In this document: in pieces, positions 1 to 7,374 of the stretch
How positions within the stretch are numbered: position 1 is the stretch's first letter
Layout of the letters: each line of letters opens with the position of its first letter
Assembly (NCBI GenBank): GCA_964579145.1
Contig: CAZOGB010000013.1
Location: 154 to 64,153 of the forward strand
Source: an uncultured bacterium
Lineage (GTDB): Bacteria > Armatimonadota > HRBIN16
Direction: 5' to 3'
Length of the DNA: 64,000 nucleotides
Program-made: the position numbers and the translations under genes
Notes under the pieces: generated by a model
What the model was told of the DNA's origin: nothing
What the model saw: only the letters and a program-made list of their open reading frames with translations
Databases searched by the model: none

Positions 1-123
1 AGGGCTATAATCTGCTTCAGCGGGTTTTGTCCTGTGTGTTGCACCACCTCTCGATTGCAGGCGGAAGAAGTCAACCTTTAGGTTTTGGTGGCGCTTCAGA
101 CCTGCTTTCCGCGACAGCGTTTG

Positions 124-3100
124 TCATGGAGTTTCAATTTGACATTGCTTACCTACGGGGGCCTCCTGTAATCTTCGAAGCAGTACTTCAAGATAGCGTG
201 CAACAGGACCCCGCTGGAGGTACTGGTGAGCAAACTGGTTTCGGTAGCTTCTCAAGCATCCGTAGCAGCTTGCGTTTTCGTCGCAGCCACACTTACCCCT
301 GACTCGCTCGAAGGCAGCACCTAAACAGGATACTAGTATTCTACTCTCTTCTAACTGTGCCACGAGACCTGCCCCACCTGGCACATTGTCGTATAAGACG
401 ATGGGAAGAATGGTGTGTTGTTCCTTATAATCCACTGTTGCATTGAGATCGGTAGACGGAACCTCCAATACCTCTGCTGCACCCTCTACTATAGCACAAG
501 CCAGTGAATAAGCGAACCAAATAGGGTCAGTACTATCCTCAGGCTTGACATGGAATAGAAGCTGCAGCACGTCGGTCACGAACTCGTGTCCCAAGGAAAC
601 TTGCTCAAGTGTACCTCGGCAATCTTGACCATATGGATCTCTGTGGCTTTTTACACGGCTTCTAAAGCCAGCTCCGCATTCACGACAAACGTAGAACCCC
701 TCTCCTCTTCGCCCTTCGCACAAAACCACCATTCGCCCAGGGGAAGCCTTTTGTATGCTAATGAGAGGATAGCGGGGGTCTGGGAGAACGATAATATCTG
801 GTTGACGTTCCACCGAACCTGCGAAATATGGACGAGTTGAAAAAGCTCTTGTAGTACGCGATCTTGGTTCCTTTGGTCTCTCTCTATCGGTTATAAAGCC
901 AAAAAGCGGAACGATGTACTGACAAGTCACGAGACGATCACCACATGGTGCCTCGGGGGCACTTTGTCCTTGTTCCCACTGCATGAACACGTTGTGTTTT
1001 GCACATCGTATGTAGAACCTCCGCTGCCACTCCTTTCCGGCAACCTTCTTGAGCCCATAGGATGTCCATTCCTTCTTATTTGCAACAATCTTGCTGGTGG
1101 GAGCAAACTCGGAAATAGCTATACTGAGGTCTCTTTGGAGAAGCACTTCAAAGGCTTCTTGATTTTTTAGCGCTCTTTGCGTATCAAGTTCGACCACATC
1201 CACTGGAAAGCCATATTTAGGTATAACTGCTTTGCGAGACAGAAACGAAAGCACTTCTTCTTGGCTGATTGTGTCTGCTCGCCTTGCTGCCCATTGGGCG
1301 GTTTTATAGTCCCTCTGTTCCGCCGATACTTTTTCGAGTTTTTTGACATTTTGATAGTCACTGGATACTTCAGCTTCTGCAAGAGCAAGACGGCTTTCGT
1401 CTCCTGCGATTCTCTCCACCCACTCGTCGTTTTCCAGACCGACCTTATCAAACATGTCTGGTGGGACGATTGCACGAAGACACGTTCGTATTCCATCTTT
1501 GTTGTTTTCCAGAAAATCTTTAAAATCAACACAACCTGTTGGCTGTTCTAAGTTTCTGAACAGCTGTTCTACGGTACGGAACCGTTCTGGGAACTGCCGG
1601 AAAAAACAAGAAAGAGCTACCGCAGTGACGTGGCGAGCGATAATCTTTTCGTTCCTCAAGCTCAAAACTGGCGGACGAACTGTGCCGTTAAGCATTCGTT
1701 CTGGTTCGGCAAAGTGATACAGATCGTGAGGAGACCGACGGCAGTAGGTAATAGCAAAGCCCGGGTAGCCTCTGCGACGCCCTGCTCGCCCCACCCGCTG
1801 GGCATAGTTGAAAGCCTCAGGAGGAACATTACGCAAGAATATTGTATCCAGGTCGCCAAGATCGACACCCAACTCGAAAGTTGTGGAACAGCTCAGAACA
1901 TGGATCTTGCCTTCTTTGAATTCTCGTTGAAACTCACGGGCTTTCTCCTTGTCCAATTGGGCAGTATGTTCCTCTACGCGAAGGATTCCAGGGAGATGCT
2001 CCATGTATAGCTGACGATAGTGATTTGGCTCCAATTCGCAAACTCTTACAGGCGTAAGTTTGCCAGGGCAACGATGCCTTGGACACATATCGCGGACCGA
2101 GAGCGTGTACAGGCGTCCACAAGTATCGCACCGATAAATGGTGCTGTCATCATGTAGAAGCTGAAATCTATACCACTCAGGGTTCAGTCTCCGAGCATCC
2201 CCTACAGAGAGCAAGAGGCGGTGCTCTAGTGGACAGGATTTCTGTTCAGAGTGCATGAAGGTTTGCCAGATATGCCTCAGCACTTCCACAGCCTCATTCA
2301 ACGCTTCTTCTTCAGAAATATCTCTGACCGATCTTAGGAGCAGCTTTGCCAGAAGTTTGGCGCGCTTTCCCATCCTACCATCCCAACCACGTACACTTTG
2401 CTCTCGTCTCGGATCGCCGATGCGGAAACACGTTTGAGAAGCCTGTAGTTTTAGGTCACTCCAGCTTAGCAAGACACCACTTTCTGCCTTCAATTCCACT
2501 GCCCTATCAGATCTCATAGTATCTAACAAGAGAAACACTATATCAAAAGCCTCCTGCTCAGTAAGAGACCAAGGAGGAGAAGTAAGTAAGCGGGGTACTT
2601 CAAGCCATTCCGGCCACTTGATAAACCACCGGATCAAGCCAACCCCTTCAAGTGAGACTCGTATCTCATCGGTCAAGAATTCCCGGTATAAGTCAATCCA
2701 TGCCTCTCGGCGCAGATCGATCTCTCCTGCAGCTGGGGAGGAAGCTCGCTTTTCGCGAAGGCTTTCCTGAAGCCCTCTTGCAAGTTCCCGTAAAGACAAT
2801 CCTTCCTGCGTATAGTGCTCCAGTCTTCGTGCAGTATCAAGAATTAAGTTGCGACTGAGAATATCCCGATAGGAGTTCTCAAGGTACCATGCAAAGAAGG
2901 CTGCTTCCTGCCGACCATCAGCGAATGCCAGAACTTTTTTGCGCTCTTCTGGAAGCAGAATATAGAGAGTTGTTGCAATGACAGCGTGCGGACCATCGGT
3001 CCCATGCACCACTTCCCGCACCGGGTCACGACCAGCAGCAGTATAGCCACAAGCGCTGCATCTTGCCAGTTGATCCGCCTTGTCTTCGTCCGAAGGAGAT

Positions 3101-4851
3101 TCTTCCCTAATAACGCGTAAGAAACTGTTGTGTCCGCAGGTTGGCTCGTTTCGGCTCACTTCACCACAGCGAACACAGAGATAAAGCATCGCCTTGCTGG
3201 GGATGTCATCGTTTTCATCCTCCTCGCTTTCTTCTTCACCGTTTTCGATAGGACGCAAAAACGTCGCTCCAAAATTAGCATCGTTTGGGTCACGAACAGG
3301 TTCTTGTATTTTACCTTCCTTAAAGTTCTTTCGGGCAACAAAGTAGTGTTGCCCACACTCTCGGCACAGAGCAACTTCAAAGGCGGCGCAGTCTGCTTTC
3401 CGATCTAGAAAGACCTTCTTCTCGGGCCAATAGGATACGAAAGCCCCCTCGAGTGATCTAAGGAAGAGATGGTATCGTGCGGACAGCAGTGGAGCACCGG
3501 ATAGAGGGTCTTCAGCCATGAGAAGGATATCTACCAAGTTAGCCAGTGCTTCCACACGCTTGTGCTCGGGTAGATCTTCAAAAACTTGGTCTGCGACATT
3601 TTTAACCTCCACAGGTTTACCAGTGATGAGACGGCGAAGATTTACAGAGCGGGCATCTGCCTGGAGAATTCTTCCCACATTGCGAGAGATGCTTGATTCC
3701 ATAGGTGGTGGAACGTGAACCTTTTCCGCTATCCGGCTTATGCCGTCTAAAGATGCTCCCTTTCCCGATAAGACTTTCCTAAGAACACGATAGTCTTCGT
3801 ACCCGAGCTTCGCGGAACTCGGCTCGGGAATCGGTTCTGCTTCACCTAAAATTACATCCTTTTCGTAGAAGTTCTCACCGAATAGATCGGATGCAAACTT
3901 GGCGACAGCAGATTTGTCCTGCTCTCCCCCCATCAGAGTTGCGCTGGTGGCAATACAGCGAAAAGATTCTGTTTGCCCTCCTTCCCTAAGGCGCTGCTTG
4001 AGGCGCCGCAGTAGCATTGCCATCTCTATGCCTCGCGCTCCGCGGTACTGATGAGCCTCGTCCAAGACCAAGAATGTCCACCAACGAGCACGTCCATTGT
4101 CAAAGAGAGGGCTGTCACCAGGACGAAGCAAAAGATATTCCAACATAGAATAATTGGTCAGAAGGATATGAGGTGGTGTGCGTCGCATTTCAGTGCGTAA
4201 AACAAGCTCTCCGTGTACTACTTCACCATTCTCAACGATAGAGTGACCTTGTCTGCTCGCAAGATGGTCTTGAGCATGACGGCTTAAGTCTTTCTCATCT
4301 TCGGGCGTTTCCCCAATATACTGTGCGAACGTAAACCGAAAAGGCGATTTTGCCTCTTTGAGTCGTTTGCAGATATCTCCTAGTCGGTCACGCTGGTCAT
4401 TGGCTAAAGCATTCATCGGATATAAGACCAGCGCACGTACCCCTGGCCCCAGGTTGCCCTCCAGAAATTCCCGGTAGAGATGGAGTAAGATGGGATAAAG
4501 AAATGCCTCGGTTTTTCCGCTACCTGTTCCCGTGGCAACAACCACGTTGCATCCTCTGGCTACGCGTTGAATAGCTTCCTCCTGATGCAGGTACAAGGGT
4601 CTATCTGCTTCCAACGCTCTCAAAAAACCATCGTCTGGCCAAGTCTGCAAGATGTTCTGAAGCAAGGCACGAAGTGTTGTACCGCGCTTGAAGACTGGGG
4701 TTGCTTCAAGGTACGGACCTCTACTCAGCCGTCCAGAGTCGAGCGCTTGCTCGAACGACCTTCTGAACTGGGGGTCTTTGAAGTAAAAAGTAGTTTTTAG
4801 GTAGCGCCTGTATCTTTCCTCGACATGATGGGCAATATCGATTGGGGTCAT
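124..4851 (-). CDS. DEAD/DEAH-box SF2 helicase with C-terminal DUF1998 (MrfA/DruE/DrmAB-like), 1575 aa
   Basis: Motifs I ATGTGSGKT, Ia YPMNALANDQ, II DEAH, III TSAT, V TTFELGVDLG, VI QRVGRAGRR. Several CxxC pairs. C-terminal LGHEFVTD...YDNVPGGAG...CGCDENASCYGC is typical of DUF1998. RBS GGAGAGG upstream. Confidence 0.92.
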   Translation of the reverse strand: MTPIDIAHHVEERYRRYLKTTFYFKDPQFRRSFEQALDSGRLSRGPYLEATPVFKRGTTLRALLQNILQTWPDDGFLRALEADRPLYLHQEEAIQRVARGCNVVVATGTGSGKTEAFLYPILLHLYREFLEGNLGPGVRALVLYPMNALANDQRDRLGDICKRLKEAKSPFRFTFAQYIGETPEDEKDLSRHAQDHLASRQGHSIVENGEVVHGELVLRTEMRRTPPHILLTNYSMLEYLLLRPGDSPLFDNGRARWWTFLVLDEAHQYRGARGIEMAMLLRRLKQRLREGGQTESFRCIATSATLMGGEQDKSAVAKFASDLFGENFYEKDVILGEAEPIPEPSSAKLGYEDYRVLRKVLSGKGASLDGISRIAEKVHVPPPMESSISRNVGRILQADARSVNLRRLITGKPVEVKNVADQVFEDLPEHKRVEALANLVDILLMAEDPLSGAPLLSARYHLFLRSLEGAFVSYWPEKKVFLDRKADCAAFEVALCRECGQHYFVARKNFKEGKIQEPVRDPNDANFGATFLRPIENGEEESEEDENDDIPSKAMLYLCVRCGEVSRNEPTCGHNSFLRVIREESPSDEDKADQLARCSACGYTAAGRDPVREVVHGTDGPHAVIATTLYILLPEERKKVLAFADGRQEAAFFAWYLENSYRDILSRNLILDTARRLEHYTQEGLSLRELARGLQESLREKRASSPAAGEIDLRREAWIDLYREFLTDEIRVSLEGVGLIRWFIKWPEWLEVPRLLTSPPWSLTEQEAFDIVFLLLDTMRSDRAVELKAESGVLLSWSDLKLQASQTCFRIGDPRREQSVRGWDGRMGKRAKLLAKLLLRSVRDISEEEALNEAVEVLRHIWQTFMHSEQKSCPLEHRLLLSVGDARRLNPEWYRFQLLHDDSTIYRCDTCGRLYTLSVRDMCPRHRCPGKLTPVRVCELEPNHYRQLYMEHLPGILRVEEHTAQLDKEKAREFQREFKEGKIHVLSCSTTFELGVDLGDLDTIFLRNVPPEAFNYAQRVGRAGRRRGYPGFAITYCRRSPHDLYHFAEPERMLNGTVRPPVLSLRNEKIIARHVTAVALSCFFRQFPERFRTVEQLFRNLEQPTGCVDFKDFLENNKDGIRTCLRAIVPPDMFDKVGLENDEWVERIAGDESRLALAEAEVSSDYQNVKKLEKVSAEQRDYKTAQWAARRADTISQEEVLSFLSRKAVIPKYGFPVDVVELDTQRALKNQEAFEVLLQRDLSIAISEFAPTSKIVANKKEWTSYGLKKVAGKEWQRRFYIRCAKHNVFMQWEQGQSAPEAPCGDRLVTCQYIVPLFGFITDRERPKEPRSRTTRAFSTRPYFAGSVERQPDIIVLPDPRYPLISIQKASPGRMVVLCEGRRGEGFYVCRECGAGFRSRVKSHRDPYGQDCRGTLEQVSLGHEFVTDVLQLLFHVKPEDSTDPIWFAYSLACAIVEGAAEVLEVPSTDLNATVDYKEQHTILPIVLYDNVPGGAGLVAQLEESRILVSCLGAAFERVRGKCGCDENASCYGCLRSYRNQFAHQYLQRGPVARYLEVLLRRLQEAPVGKQCQIETP

Positions 4852-4863
4852 AGTATCCTCTCC

Positions 4864-7254
4864 CTAGCGTAGACTATATAATTCCGTCTTATGCTTTTCA
4901 ATCAGATGTTTCCACCTTGCCTCATTTGTTTCCCGCACTGTATTAGCGCACAGCTCGCACCTATAGACAATAGGGAGTTGGCGCATAACCTTTTCCCGGA
5001 TTTCGTTGACATCATCGATGGTACGAAAGCTGACTGTTGCCCCCCAATGACAGGTATCGATGTGTTGCTGGATTTTGCTGGTCGGGCTTGCAGGGTCGCC
5101 TGATTCTGCATAAAAATCGCAGTAAGCACACTTGTAAATCTCATGGGGGAGTCCGTAGATAAAAGAACGTAGCTCTTGGTAAGAGTTCAACGGAGCGAAA
5201 AACTCATTCAGGTGTGCAGTTTGTATGTGACGATATATATCAGCCTCTCCAAGAGAGGCAAAGTTACACTTATTGCAGACAGCTTTAACTACCAGTTCGC
5301 CGAGGATGCCCTCATAATTTTTTTGTTCCTGAGAAATCCACACCTTGAGAGGAAACTTTCCGAGACAGTTCAATTCCTCTGCTCCACTGAAATCGCGAAG
5401 CGGTATAGAGACTTCCTTTTCACCTACCCCTACATCGTAATAGCGAGAATTCTCTTGCTTGAACCCTATACCTATCTTGTCTATCCATCGTTTTTGGGGT
5501 AACCGCAGCCATATTGCAGTGTTTGATGTCGGGAGCATCATGTCTCTTGAGAAGTCCAGGGGCTTGTCTTTCCACTGCGATGGCTTGCTATTCTCTTCTG
5601 CGACACCCCACCAAACTCTGTCCACCAGGAGCGCCAGAGTCACCTGGGGACCATTTTCGTAGCCAATTCGCCAACGAGTCATATCGTAATCGGGTTTGGC
5701 CGGTACTGTTAGAATAATTCTTCCATCTTCTTGATCAACCGACATATCTCGTAAGTTGTCAAGTGGGTATAAGTTGACATCCTTCTCACAGGAAAGTTGA
5801 ATACGAATCGCTTTATGTCCACCTGCAAAAGGGAGGGGAGATGTCGTTTGTGTTTCAATCTGCTGAAGCCCTAGTAGAAATCTAAAGTCCAAGCTCTCCA
5901 CGAGGTCCTCGTTCTCATCGTAGAACCTGATGAAATACCATCCTCCTCTTCTATCCAGGATTTCGGAAGGTAATTCCTGCTCTGTCCGACTAGGATCGGG
6001 GCTGAACTGTGTGCGCCATTTTCCTCGGCCGTGTCCCTCCTCTCCGAGAACTATTATTCTGATTTCTTTCCATATCTCCTTTTCTGTGGCACGAATCGTT
6101 GGGAGATTACTGAAAAGTGGTCCTACACCTTCGCTTGCATCTTCAATTTTATGCCCGATCAAGGTAAAGCAAGCTGACCTCATGGGAAGCTGCAAAACTT
6201 TCCCGCCAGAGCGGAACACGATCCCGTACGTGGAGTTCTTCTGTATATCGAAGAAATGAGCACGGTATCCTTCAATGGCAACGAATTCAGGTGCCACTGG
6301 TGGCGGTCCTGACATAGTTTCATCCCGCTCCCAAGCGTCCCCTGCAACCACAAGATATGAACCCAGCGTCGCCAACCTAACACGCCTGCCATCCCTCAAA
6401 TCTTGACCACTCAGTTTAAACAATAGATAATCCTCAGTATCAAACGCGATACTATGGGTGTGAAGCAAGCCGTTCTCTGTCCATTGCACAAGAACCTGAT
6501 CGCGGATGGAATTAAGAATCCATCGGTTCTCGCGGTCCGGGTCAGCAAAAAGGAATGCCTCTCCCTGGCGAATCTCGAGGTCGGAGCACTTCAGCATTTT
6601 CGTAGGCAATTCTATCCCAATAAACCACATCCGCTCTTTCTTCCAACAAACTACTTCTGGCTTTAGGAAATTACGCAGGGTGAACTGCGTAGAGGCTTCC
6701 CCACCGTAGGTGGTACCTCGTGGTCTGCCCCCCCTATTTATAGGGTCCCGTCGTCGCTTTGCTACCGAGACCGATAAATGGCCTTGCATTACACGCTGCG
6801 ATACAGCAACCTCTTGCTGTTGAACATCCTCCGCCCCTGATGACGCCCCGTTCTGTAGCATTATCGACCGAGCATCTACTACTGAGGATGATGCCTGATT
6901 CTCTTGCCGGCGTTCATCCGTTGGTTCTATCTGTCCCAAGCCCTGTGGTTCGTCTGAACACTCGAGATCTCCCGACTTCGTAGTTTCCGGTTCCTGTACA
7001 GCTACTGACAGGGTTTCTCGGAAGACCGTTGGGGTGCTCTCTTCAACAACATCGGGTTGGATACTCGCTGTTGCTACTCGTGTTTGCCCGTCTACGAGCT
7101 CGATGCCTTGCGCTTCATCTGCGTGGTGGGGCTGTGCCGCCTCAGCTGCTTCTGCTTCGTGCGATTGCTTACGCTTGCGTGCCACTAAGTAGACTGCGGT
7201 AGCGGTTGCGGCTAATACGAGAAAGAAAGCGCAGAACACGGTTACTGACCTCAT
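4864..7254 (-). CDS. Hypothetical membrane-anchored protein with three C-terminal C2H2 zinc fingers (about 796 aa)
   Basis: Long ORF 12 nt upstream of the helicase. N-terminal TM VFCAFFLVLAATATAVYLVA followed by RKRK. C-terminal CNKC-x12-H-x4-H, CAYC-x18-H-x4-H, CELC-x13-H-x4-H. ATG 7254 lies 8 nt after GAGGAG and is preferred over GTG 7263. Confidence 0.85.
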   Translation of the reverse strand: MRSVTVFCAFFLVLAATATAVYLVARKRKQSHEAEAAEAAQPHHADEAQGIELVDGQTRVATASIQPDVVEESTPTVFRETLSVAVQEPETTKSGDLECSDEPQGLGQIEPTDERRQENQASSSVVDARSIMLQNGASSGAEDVQQQEVAVSQRVMQGHLSVSVAKRRRDPINRGGRPRGTTYGGEASTQFTLRNFLKPEVVCWKKERMWFIGIELPTKMLKCSDLEIRQGEAFLFADPDRENRWILNSIRDQVLVQWTENGLLHTHSIAFDTEDYLLFKLSGQDLRDGRRVRLATLGSYLVVAGDAWERDETMSGPPPVAPEFVAIEGYRAHFFDIQKNSTYGIVFRSGGKVLQLPMRSACFTLIGHKIEDASEGVGPLFSNLPTIRATEKEIWKEIRIIVLGEEGHGRGKWRTQFSPDPSRTEQELPSEILDRRGGWYFIRFYDENEDLVESLDFRFLLGLQQIETQTTSPLPFAGGHKAIRIQLSCEKDVNLYPLDNLRDMSVDQEDGRIILTVPAKPDYDMTRWRIGYENGPQVTLALLVDRVWWGVAEENSKPSQWKDKPLDFSRDMMLPTSNTAIWLRLPQKRWIDKIGIGFKQENSRYYDVGVGEKEVSIPLRDFSGAEELNCLGKFPLKVWISQEQKNYEGILGELVVKAVCNKCNFASLGEADIYRHIQTAHLNEFFAPLNSYQELRSFIYGLPHEIYKCAYCDFYAESGDPASPTSKIQQHIDTCHWGATVSFRTIDDVNEIREKVMRQLPIVYRCELCANTVRETNEARWKHLIEKHKTELYSLR

Positions 7255-7337
7255 ATTATGCACTCCTCTACTTCCCGAACCGGAACCCGTCTAGGCGGTA
7301 GCAGGCAGACTGTGCGTCTTGCATGCTTCTACTTTTA

Positions 7338-7374
7338 ATCTTAGCAGTACCATTAAAGTTTTGGCAACTTGCCA
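7338..7374 (-). promoter_or_regulatory. Putative sigma70 promoter of the helicase operon (TTGCCA-N18-TAAGAT), with the -35 inside the palindrome TGGCAA-C-TTGCCA
   Basis: Minus-strand TTGCCA 7367-7362 and TAAGAT 7343-7338; perfect inverted hexamer 7362-7374. Confidence 0.45.

What the first reader, a model, noticed from the sequence alone, without database searches (positions are those of the whole stretch)
4864..5277. Three classical C2H2 zinc fingers plus an AT-hook-like motif in a bacterial membrane protein
Seen: C-x2-C-x12-H-x4-H (CNKC...HIQTAH), C-x2-C-x18-H-x4-H and C-x2-C-x13-H-x4-H at the C-terminus, and an RGGRPRG motif near residue 180. RKRK directly after the TM suggests the bulk is cytoplasmic. 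Known: tandem C2H2 fingers and G-R-P AT-hooks are nucleic-acid binding modules typical of eukaryotes and uncommon in bacteria. Inference: a DNA-sensing arm held at the membrane, e.g. at sites of phage DNA entry.
Basis: partly seen in the sequence, partly recalled or inferred. Interest (0 to 1): 0.62.

Follow-up and report, generated by a model that had tools for sequence, protein, structure and literature searches.

The report
Membrane-tethered zinc-finger partner of Druantia helicase
The three zinc fingers are real and conserved, and they form the swappable tip of a membrane-anchored protein that always sits next to a Druantia-type anti-phage helicase, which points to an undescribed variant of a known bacterial immune system.

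Summary
Window 4864-7263 (-) encodes a 796/799-aa protein with one N-terminal membrane helix followed by RKRK. After that come an acidic disordered tether, a conserved KRGGRPR motif, about five Ig-like beta-sandwich domains, and three C2H2-type fingers whose Cys/His ligands are conserved in relatives of 31-47% identity. This is far beyond chance: 0 of 200,000 shuffles give three motifs.

The gene is the first of a two-gene operon. A nuclease-less DruE helicase starts 12 nt downstream (PADLOC E 4e-187). The same pair recurs in about 45 of 52 loci from more than 15 phyla, including archaea, with no conserved third gene. It lies on a low-GC island that is absent from 200 other genomes of the phylum.

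The protein occupies the DruH position and shares its tandem Ig-like fold class. It shows no sequence homology to DruH in HMM or profile-profile tests and lacks both helical end domains of DruH.

Its C-terminal head has been exchanged repeatedly between close relatives. The alternatives are the triple finger, a uS9-like domain, an eL13-like domain and a basic helical domain.

My best reading is a membrane-tethered sensor or adaptor for a Druantia-like defence. Nucleic-acid binding by the near-neutral finger head is unproven. I rate it a new variant of a known kind.

The parts
4864..7263 (-). Partner gene (799 aa from the GTG at 7263; probable real start is the ATG at 7254, giving 796 aa). It is a membrane-tethered Ig-array protein with a triple zinc-finger head.
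7180..7245 (-). Single N-terminal transmembrane helix (aa 7-28), followed by RKRK (aa 29-32, 7168-7179). Predicted orientation is N-out, C-in.
6754..7179 (-). Acidic, low-complexity disordered tether (aa 29-170, net -12). Its length and composition vary in relatives (18-346 aa, sometimes coiled-coil-like).
6715..6735 (-). Conserved AT-hook-like motif RGGRPRG (family consensus KR.EP.KRGGRPR), about 29 aa before the first Ig-like domain.
5287..6657 (-). Conserved all-beta core (aa 203-659), about five tandem Ig-like beta-sandwich domains. Boundaries are read from DSSP: about 203-272, 279-369, 389-471, 486-556 and 569-659.
5212..5277 (-). Zinc finger 1: C663-x2-C666-x12-H679-x4-H684, predicted beta-beta-alpha.
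5047..5130 (-). Zinc finger 2: C712-x2-C715-x18-H734-x4-H739. It is BED-like; most relatives have Cys as the fourth ligand.
4891..4959 (-). Zinc finger 3: C769-x2-C772-x13-H786-x4-H791, predicted beta-beta-alpha with a long C-terminal helix.
4852..4863 (-). 12-nt intergenic gap containing the GGAGAGG ribosome-binding site for the helicase gene; this is the operon junction.
124..4851 (-). DruE-type YprA/MrfA-like SF2 helicase, 1575 aa. It has DEAD, Helicase_C and MZB/DUF1998 domains, with intact GSGKT, DEAH and QRVGRAGR motifs and the Cys cluster. No nuclease domain was detected.
1..7300 (.). Low-GC island (0.48-0.50 against about 0.60 in the rest of the window). It abuts the end of contig C13.

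Best explanation
The gene encodes the membrane-tethered partner of a nuclease-less DruE helicase. Together they form a self-contained two-gene Druantia type III-like anti-phage system.

Anatomy. The protein is anchored in the cytoplasmic membrane by one N-terminal helix, N-out and C-in. A long flexible acidic tether and a conserved KRGGRPR (AT-hook-like) motif lead to a rigid array of about five Ig-like domains. That array carries an exchangeable C-terminal head. In this genome the head is a compact module of three zinc-binding C2H2/BED-like fingers. In close relatives the same position holds a uS9-like, an eL13-like or a basic helical module.

Proposed mechanism (inferred). The head, together with the GRP motif, recognises a ligand that appears during infection. 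The most likely ligand is phage nucleic acid (linear, single-stranded or structured DNA, or RNA) close to the membrane. Recognition would recruit or release DruE, which loads on free or forked DNA ends and unwinds the phage genome 3'-to-5'. This would block circularisation and replication without a nuclease of its own.

Shown here: the motifs and their conservation, the predicted folds, the operon, the gene linkage across phyla, the head swaps, horizontal acquisition, and the lack of sequence homology to DruH.

Inferred: zinc binding, topology, the ligand, the interaction with DruE, and defence activity.
For: - DruE identity: PADLOC DruE1 E 3.9e-187, DruE3 E 2e-162; Pfam DEAD, Helicase_C and MZB.
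- Operon: 12-nt gap with an RBS.
- Linkage: a DruE homolog lies immediately downstream on the same strand in about 45 of 52 genome loci from more than 15 phyla plus 2 archaeal MAGs. Most of the rest end at the contig edge. No conserved third gene was found.
- The DruEs paired with this family form one clade (SH-aLRT 100), apart from E. coli III-A and P. putida type I.
- Horizontal acquisition: GC 0.49 against 0.60; present in 1 of 201 genomes of the phylum and 0 of 12 in the genus.
- Fold: pLDDT 91.5; the best PDB matches are tandem Ig arrays such as titin I65-70 (E 3.6e-8), VEGFR, nectin and DSCAM. Canonical DruH, with six Ig-like domains, is reported to give the same class of hit (10.64898/2026.05.13.724313; 10.64898/2026.05.12.722862).
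- Fingers: ligands conserved, beta-beta-alpha at pLDDT 94.8, far beyond chance.
- Topology: positive-inside bias in 86 of 96 relatives.
- Heads: Pfam Ribosomal_S9 E 1e-12 to 1e-18 and PDB uS9 E 1e-13; Pfam Ribosomal_L13e E 1e-8 to 1e-11 and PDB eL13 E 7e-9. These heads are strongly basic (+7 to +16).
- Head swaps: finger and S9 heads are intermixed on the DruE tree, with at least 7 changes forced by well-supported branches. L013 (fingers) and L033 (S9, an archaeon) are 63% identical over aa 1-631 and then have unrelated tails.
- Published work shows that type III Druantia needs both proteins, that DruH binds ssDNA or forked DNA, and that DruE is a 3'-5' helicase (10.64898/2026.05.13.724758; PMC13316683).
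Against: - There is no experiment on this family, and no member comes from a cultured, tested strain.
- The finger head is near-neutral (median net -2, pI 6.6). It has conserved acidic residues at the helix start of finger 1 and long structured spacers instead of TGEKP linkers. It therefore does not look like a typical DNA-wrapping finger array.
- Pfam C2H2 and BED matches are marginal, and Foldseek on the head is not significant.
- The GRP motif deviates from the R-G-R-P core.
- No direct evidence links the partner to DruE physically; co-folding could not be run.
- The system has no recognisable nuclease, so how phage is cleared is open.
- Ig arrays behind an N-terminal helix are also typical of surface proteins.
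Confidence: 0.6

Rival explanations
1. The finger head is a protein-protein module. It docks or holds DruE (or another protein) at the membrane as an off-switch, and infection releases the helicase. Nucleic acid is not its ligand.
For: - The head is near-neutral, with conserved acidic residues at the helix start of finger 1 and non-classical spacers.
- In canonical type III systems the C-terminal domain of DruH contacts the DruE stalk (10.64898/2026.05.13.724313).
- DruE partners are displaced on infection (10.64898/2026.05.13.724758).
- C2H2 fingers can mediate protein contacts (general knowledge).
Against: - Heads are exchanged between close DruE relatives without regard to the DruE tree. 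A dedicated docking surface would not be expected to behave this way.
- The alternative heads are strongly basic homologs of rRNA-binding proteins.
Confidence: 0.22
2. The heads target RNA or the ribosome rather than DNA. In this reading the system senses phage transcripts or translation-linked events at the membrane, and the fingers act as RNA-binding fingers.
For: - Two of the alternative heads are homologs of the globular rRNA-binding parts of uS9 and eL13.
- H-x4-H spacing and long helices also occur in RNA-binding fingers (general knowledge; not tested here).
Against: - DruE and DruH act on DNA in every published study.
- No RNA-specific feature was demonstrated here.
- The S9-like head lacks the C-terminal tail of uS9 (Pfam profile positions 1-94 of 121).
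Confidence: 0.18
3. The bulk of the protein is outside the cytoplasm (C-out): an Ig-array surface or periplasmic protein, for example a phage-receptor decoy.
For: Tandem Ig-like arrays behind an N-terminal hydrophobic helix are common in bacterial surface proteins. The Foldseek hits include an S-layer protein and adhesin-like proteins.
Against: - There are 5.4 K/R on average in the 15 residues after the helix, and the N-tail is acidic or neutral.
- The protein has three Cys/His zinc sites.
- The alternative heads are like ribosomal proteins.
- The fixed partner is a cytoplasmic helicase.
- Canonical DruH is a cytoplasmic Ig array.
Confidence: 0.04
4. The pair is a housekeeping DNA-repair module (MrfA/YprA-like) rather than an immune system.
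For: DruE belongs to the YprA/MrfA helicase family, which includes repair helicases (PMC12458937).
Against: - The best HMM matches are to DruE, not MrfA.
- The pair sits on a low-GC island and is absent from all sampled congeners.
- Genomic neighbourhoods vary between loci.
- The partner evolves faster than the helicase (47% against 72% identity to the nearest relative).
Confidence: 0.05

Closest known systems
Druantia type III (DruH-DruE; E. coli / P. aeruginosa III-A, Mycolicibacterium smegmatis system; PDB 9tud DruH)
   Same: - Two-gene operon with the partner upstream of a DruE helicase (DEAD, Helicase_C and MZB domains).
- The partner is built around a tandem array of Ig-like domains.
- The DruE is nuclease-less, as described for subtype III-B and for the M. 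smegmatis system.
- The location is a horizontally acquired island.
   Different: - The partner has no sequence similarity to DruH. It hits none of the 11 PADLOC DruH3 models, and neither Pfam PF27205 nor PF27201. hhalign probability is 0.12%.
- It is 300 aa shorter and has about five rather than six Ig-like domains.
- The N-terminal helical (putative exonuclease) domain of DruH is replaced by a membrane helix, a tether and a GRP motif.
- The C-terminal helical domain of DruH is replaced by exchangeable heads.
- Its DruE forms a separate clade.
Eukaryote-type C2H2 and BED zinc fingers (e.g. CTCF, Kaiso, ZFY; Pfam zf-C2H2, zf-BED)
   Same: - C-x2-C-x12/13-H-x4-H ligand spacing and a predicted beta-beta-alpha fold.
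- Finger 2 fits the BED pattern C-x2-C-x17-22-H-x3-5-[HC].
- The top (weak) structural matches are CTCF and Kaiso arrays.
   Different: - No Pfam model reaches its threshold on this protein. BED matches appear in only 5 of 26 relatives.
- Spacers are about 27-29 structured residues, not TGEKP.
- The module is near-neutral.
- The three fingers are predicted to pack into one compact unit.
Ros/MucR prokaryotic C2H2 zinc finger
   Same: It is a bacterial Cys2His2 zinc site.
   Different: Ros/MucR has a single finger inside a larger globular fold and acts as a soluble transcription regulator. No Pfam ROS_MucR match was seen.
AT-hook (HMGA-type R-G-R-P minor-groove motif)
   Same: A G-R-P core flanked by basic residues in a disordered segment, strongly conserved.
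   Different: The core is G-G-R-P, not R-G-R-P. There is a single copy and no Pfam AT_hook hit. Binding has not been tested.
Zorya (membrane-embedded anti-phage sensor with cytoplasmic effector recruitment)
   Same: The concept is shared: a membrane-located component coupled to a cytoplasmic DNA-targeting effector.
   Different: There is no homology and no motor complex. Here the anchor is a single-pass helix.

Membership tests
Classical C2H2 zinc finger | Ligand pattern C-x2-4-C-x12-H-x3-5-H | tested here: met
   Finger 1 fits exactly (x12, x4). Finger 3 has x13. Finger 2 has x18, which is BED-like.
Classical C2H2 zinc finger | Beta-beta-alpha fold around the metal site | tested here: met
   AlphaFold2 with DSSP: each finger has two short strands and then a helix carrying the His pair. 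pLDDT is 94.8. This is a prediction only.
Classical C2H2 zinc finger | Significant match to a curated C2H2 profile | tested here: not met
   The best Pfam hits have E 0.037-0.33, all below the gathering score. The PDB profile search gives ZFY at E 0.21. Foldseek on the head gives E 0.06 or worse.
Classical C2H2 zinc finger | Short TGEKP-type linkers between tandem fingers | tested here: not met
   The spacers are 27 and 29 residues long and contain their own strand and helix.
Classical C2H2 zinc finger | Zinc binding | not testable with these tools
   It needs ICP-MS or a PAR assay on purified aa 655-799.
BED zinc finger (PF02892) | C-x2-C-x(17-22)-H-x(3-5)-[HC] and a profile match | tested here: inconclusive
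   Finger 2 fits the pattern. The profile matches 5 of 26 relatives (best E 4e-5; P0004 scores 22.2 bits against a cutoff of 20.6) but not the window's own protein.
AT-hook | R-G-R-P core with basic flanks in a disordered region | tested here: not met
   The core is G-G-R-P (family consensus KRGGRPR). The flanks are basic and the region is disordered (pLDDT below 50). No Pfam AT_hook match was found.
DruH (STY4851/ECs_5259 family; PADLOC DruH3; Pfam PF27205 and PF27201) | Sequence or profile similarity to DruH | tested here: not met
   There is no PADLOC hit at E up to 0.1 and no Pfam hit. As a positive control, E. coli DruH hits 11 DruH3 models. hhalign of the family against a DruH alignment gives probability 0.12%.
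DruH (STY4851/ECs_5259 family; PADLOC DruH3; Pfam PF27205 and PF27201) | Gene immediately upstream of druE in a two-gene operon | tested here: met
DruH (STY4851/ECs_5259 family; PADLOC DruH3; Pfam PF27205 and PF27201) | Central array of Ig-like domains | tested here: met
   The model is all-beta and its top PDB hits are tandem Ig arrays. There are about five domains, against six in DruH. A direct superposition on 9tud was not possible.
DruH (STY4851/ECs_5259 family; PADLOC DruH3; Pfam PF27205 and PF27201) | N-terminal and C-terminal alpha-helical domains that contact each other | tested here: not met
   The N-terminus is a TM helix plus a disordered tether. The C-terminus is the finger module.
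Druantia defence system (type III-like) | DruE signature helicase (SF2 core plus MZB/DUF1998) | tested here: met
   PADLOC DruE1 E 3.9e-187; Pfam DEAD, Helicase_C and MZB.
Druantia defence system (type III-like) | Protection against phage that requires both genes | not testable with these tools
   It needs plaque assays with the cloned operon.

The most novel reading that the evidence does not exclude
This is an unnamed Druantia-like type in which a membrane-tethered 'fishing-line' sensor replaces DruH. The sensor consists of an anchor helix, a long tether, a GRP motif and an Ig array. It carries interchangeable reader heads recruited from eukaryote-type zinc fingers and from ribosomal proteins (uS9, eL13). 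The heads would recognise different nucleic-acid signatures of infection at the inner face of the membrane and license a nuclease-free helicase. Ribosomal-protein domains and C2H2 fingers would then have been adopted as immune receptors in bacteria and archaea.
Probability: 0.3. Interest if true: 0.8.

Novelty: new variant of a known kind. Interest (0 to 1): 0.63.

Why it matters
Druantia is widespread, and its mechanism was only worked out in 2025-2026. The role of DruH is still disputed: sensor, ssDNA clamp or exonuclease.

Here a large family takes the DruH position next to its own DruE clade. It has at least 1060 clusters at 50% identity and is found almost only in uncultured lineages of many phyla. 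It keeps the Ig array but swaps both ends of the protein. A membrane anchor replaces the putative exonuclease domain, and modular heads replace the DruE-contacting domain.

This natural experiment can show which parts of the partner are essential. It can show whether Druantia-like helicases work without any nuclease, and whether defence can be localised to the membrane.

Current tools (PADLOC, NCBIfam, Pfam) do not recognise the partner, and public records mislabel many members as '30S ribosomal protein S9'. These systems are therefore missed or mis-annotated. Conserved triple C2H2 fingers and an eL13-like domain in bacteria are also unusual in their own right.

Tried and rejected
- PADLOC and NCBIfam gave no meaningful hit for the partner.
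- Profile-profile comparison with canonical DruH and with the 1069-aa partner of the nearest outgroup DruE in Clostridium butyricum found nothing. Homology to DruH is therefore not claimed.
- A profile search of PDB sequences gave only low-complexity matches to the tether and sub-threshold hits to single C2H2 fingers.
- Foldseek on the finger module alone gave no significant match.
- The search for a conserved third gene, for example a nuclease, in the flanks of 52 loci found none.
- The promoter and terminator scan gave no more sites than shuffled sequence, so I make no promoter claim.
- Literature searches for this architecture (Druantia with transmembrane, zinc finger or ribosomal protein S9) found no description.
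- The other side of the island cannot be seen because the contig ends 153 nt before the window.
- I considered and rejected a signal peptide: the hydrophobic stretch is 22 residues long and is followed directly by RKRK.
- I considered and rejected a chance motif.
Full report
OBSERVATION

The minus-strand frame 4864..7263 is open and encodes 799 aa from a GTG. An ATG at 7254 has a GAGGAG ribosome-binding site 8 nt upstream and is the likelier start. It gives the 796-aa protein held in the public collection (P0003).

The finding's coordinates, 4864-5277, run exactly from the first Cys of finger 1 to the stop codon. The motifs are as described:
- Finger 1: CNKC-x12-H-x4-H, aa 663-684.
- Finger 2: CAYC-x18-H-x4-H, aa 712-739.
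- Finger 3: CELC-x13-H-x4-H, aa 769-791.
- RGGRPRG: aa 177-183.
- A 22-residue hydrophobic helix at aa 7-28, followed by RKRK.

This is not chance. The pattern occurs 12 times in 1.9 million residues of long open frames of the whole genome. Three of those are here, and this is the only frame with more than one. None of 200,000 composition-preserving shuffles of the tail gives three motifs.

CONSERVATION AND FOLD OF THE FINGERS

Among 26 finger-bearing relatives, 31-47% identical to the query, the ligands are invariant or at least 90% conserved. In P0003 numbering these are C660, C663, H676 and H681; C709, C712 and H731; and C766, C769, H783 and H788. The fourth ligand of finger 2 is usually Cys (H-x4-C). 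With the 18-residue loop, this is the BED-finger pattern.

Pfam zf-BED matches 5 of 26 relatives (best E 4e-5), but not the window's own protein. On that protein the C2H2 models stay below threshold.

AlphaFold2 models the last 152 aa at pLDDT 94.8, with each finger as beta-beta-alpha. The fingers are separated by structured spacers of 27 and 29 residues, each with its own strand and helix. The module therefore looks compact rather than like beads on a string. Foldseek's best PDB matches are the CTCF, Kaiso and ZFAT finger arrays, but at E 0.06 or worse.

In short, the fingers are C2H2-type in ligands and fold, but atypical in their linkers. They are also atypical in charge: the head has median net charge -2 and pI 6.6, with a conserved E-E-D at the helix start of finger 1.

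THE REST OF THE PROTEIN

A single N-terminal helix followed by a basic cluster is found in 99 of 120 relatives. The 15 residues after the helix carry a mean net charge of +3.3 (5.4 K/R), against -0.3 for the very short N-tail. The bias holds in 86 of 96 cases. By the positive-inside rule, the bulk of the protein is cytoplasmic. This also fits three Cys/His metal sites and a cytoplasmic helicase partner.

After the helix comes a disordered tether. It is acidic here (net -12). In relatives it is 18-346 aa long (median 141) and often E/K/R-rich.

The tether ends in a strongly conserved motif with consensus KR.EP.KRGGRPR. The motif is present in 85 of 120 relatives and usually lies 29 aa before the folded core. 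It resembles an AT-hook, with a G-R-P core, basic flanks and a disordered setting. However, it has G-G-R-P rather than R-G-R-P, and it gets no Pfam AT_hook hit.

The conserved core, aa 203-659, is all-beta at pLDDT 91.5 and pTM 0.79. Its best PDB matches are tandem Ig-like arrays: titin I65-I70 at E 3.6e-8, an S-layer protein, VEGFR-1, nectins and DSCAM. From the DSSP string I count about five beta-sandwich domains.

GENOMIC CONTEXT

Twelve nucleotides downstream, behind a GGAGAGG site, starts a 1575-aa helicase (124..4851). It matches the PADLOC DruE models (DruE1 E 3.9e-187, DruE3 E 2e-162) and Pfam DEAD, Helicase_C and MZB/DUF1998. No nuclease domain was detected. The gene upstream of the partner is divergent and metabolic, so the unit is two genes.

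The island has GC 0.48-0.50, against about 0.60 for the rest of the window. It lies at a contig end. The family profile finds it in only 1 of 201 sampled genomes of the phylum, the window's own genome, and in none of 12 genomes of the same genus.

A scan of species-representative genomes returned 52 loci. They come from more than 15 phyla and include Methanophagales and Thermoplasmata MAGs. In about 45 of them a DruE homolog follows immediately on the same strand. In most of the others the held sequence ends just after the partner gene. No third gene is conserved in the flanks.

The family is large: 1060 clusters at 50% identity with E up to 1e-3. Every locus in the genome scan comes from a metagenome-assembled genome.

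RELATION TO DruH

Canonical type III Druantia pairs DruE with DruH. [quoted passage not shown] It binds ssDNA or forked DNA, and in one study it acts as a 3'-5' exonuclease. Its C-terminal domain contacts DruE (10.64898/2026.05.12.722862; 10.64898/2026.05.13.724313; 10.64898/2026.05.13.724758; PMC13316683).

The window's protein sits in the same operon position and has the same fold class in its core. It is not a detectable homolog:
- It hits none of the PADLOC DruH models. As a positive control, an E. coli DruH taken from a type III-A locus hits eleven.
- It lacks the Pfam families PF27205 and PF27201 that mark DruH.
- Profile-profile comparison of 120 family members with 25 DruH sequences gives probability 0.12%.
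- It lacks both helical end domains.

The DruE helicases paired with this family form one clade (SH-aLRT 100). That clade is separate from E. coli III-A and P. putida type I. In my small sample the nearest outgroup is a two-gene system from Clostridium butyricum, whose 1069-aa partner is also unrelated. This tree is small and has long branches, so the rank of the clade is provisional.

The published subtype III-B also has a compact, nuclease-less DruE (PMC12458937; 10.64898/2026.05.13.724758). I could not fetch its representative to compare.

INTERCHANGEABLE HEADS

Only part of the family carries fingers. Among the 52 loci, the C-terminal heads are:
- The triple finger in about 20.
- A domain matching Pfam Ribosomal_S9 in 11 (E 1e-12 to 1e-18, profile positions 1-94 of 121). 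Against the PDB it matches bacterial uS9 at E 1e-13, covering the globular part without the tail.
- A domain matching Pfam Ribosomal_L13e in 9 (E 1e-8 to 1e-11, above threshold). Against the PDB it matches eukaryotic eL13 at E 7e-9.
- A basic helical module in 7.
- A different Cys/His-rich module in 2.

On the DruE tree the finger and S9 heads are intermixed. The finger label needs 11 changes, and well-supported branches force at least 7; this is no better than shuffled labels. The eL13-like head, in contrast, forms a single clade.

One clean example is L013 (Nitrospirota, fingers) and L033 (a Methanophagales archaeon, uS9-like). They are 63% identical over residues 1-631, and their tails are then unrelated.

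The S9-like, eL13-like and helical heads are strongly basic (+7 to +16, mostly pI above 10). The finger head is near-neutral. The partner also diverges faster than the helicase: identity to the nearest relative is 47% for the partner and 72% for DruE.

MECHANISM

What is shown is the architecture, the linkage, the horizontal acquisition and the head swapping. What follows is inference.

I propose that the protein is a membrane-tethered sensor or adaptor of a Druantia-like system. The helix fixes it to the inner face of the membrane, and the tether gives it reach. The GRP motif and the head would bind an infection-specific ligand. That ligand is most likely phage nucleic acid, given that the heads are homologs of nucleic-acid-binding modules and that DruH binds DNA. 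The Ig array would serve as the scaffold that couples recognition to DruE.

By analogy with published DruE enzymes, the helicase would then load on free or forked ends and unwind the phage genome 3'-to-5'. With no nuclease in either protein, the outcome would be a block of circularisation and replication, as reported for the nuclease-less M. smegmatis system (PMC13316683), or clearance by host nucleases.

Because heads swap independently of the DruE lineage, I favour a ligand-recognition role over a DruE-docking role. The near-neutral charge and acidic helix of the finger head keep the docking or regulatory rival alive. The ribosomal-protein ancestry of two of the heads keeps an RNA- or ribosome-directed reading alive as well.

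My confidence is about 0.9 that the fingers are genuine metal sites on a cytoplasmic, membrane-anchored DruE partner. It is about 0.85 that the pair is a defence system, and about 0.45 that the finger head binds nucleic acid.

NOVELTY

Full-text searches found no description of a Druantia partner with a membrane anchor, zinc fingers or ribosomal-protein-like domains. Public records either leave these proteins unnamed or call them '30S ribosomal protein S9'.

A sibling note on this stretch (e1-5109675) and a follow-up on another genome (e1-774372) reached a compatible reading for the family. I saw the second note only after my own analysis. Neither is independent evidence.

I class the finding as a new variant of a known kind: Druantia type III-like, with a non-homologous, membrane-tethered, modular partner.

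LIMITS

- There are no experiments.
- The structures are predictions.
- Domain boundaries are read from DSSP only.
- Direct superposition on DruH (PDB 9tud) and co-folding with DruE could not be run.

Noticed in passing
P0052, P0079, P0039, P0047 and others: Public records name 700-830-aa members of this family '30S ribosomal protein S9' or 'uS9 family ribosomal protein'. The reason is a C-terminal S9-like domain of about 100 aa. This is a systematic mis-annotation of a defence-linked protein.
   Followed up: partly
L020, L022, L023, L024, L026, L030, L031, L040, L044 (C-terminal ~70 aa of the partner gene): These bacterial proteins carry a domain homologous to eL13 (Pfam Ribosomal_L13e; PDB eL13 E 7e-9). 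eL13 is a ribosomal protein otherwise known from eukaryotes and archaea. All nine belong to one DruE subclade.
   Followed up: partly
L013 versus L033; also L049: Partner proteins from a Nitrospirota MAG and a Methanophagales archaeal MAG are 63% identical over 631 residues. A Thermoplasmata MAG also carries the pair. This suggests recent transfer between bacteria and archaea, or a binning error.
   Followed up: no
L053:3783-11668 (Clostridium butyricum plasmid pNPD4_2): This is another two-gene DruE system. Its 1069-aa upstream partner hits no PADLOC DruH model and shows no similarity to the family studied here. It may be a further unrecognised partner type.
   Followed up: partly
window 7362-7374: The perfect palindrome TGGCAA-C-TTGCCA overlaps the promoter-like TTGCCA-N18-TAAGAT upstream of the partner gene, at the point where GC content returns to the host level.
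   Followed up: no
P0125 (1582 aa), P0212 (1428 aa), P0248 (2177 aa), P0197 (1268 aa); L014 open frame of 1428 aa: Some family members are much longer, and the family match lies only in their C-terminal 600-700 residues. These may be N-terminal fusions or gene-call artefacts.
   Followed up: no
window 1-153 upstream context (G000:C13:1-153): The helicase gene ends about 277 nt from the contig end, so the far boundary of the island, and any integrase or tRNA there, cannot be seen.
   Followed up: partly
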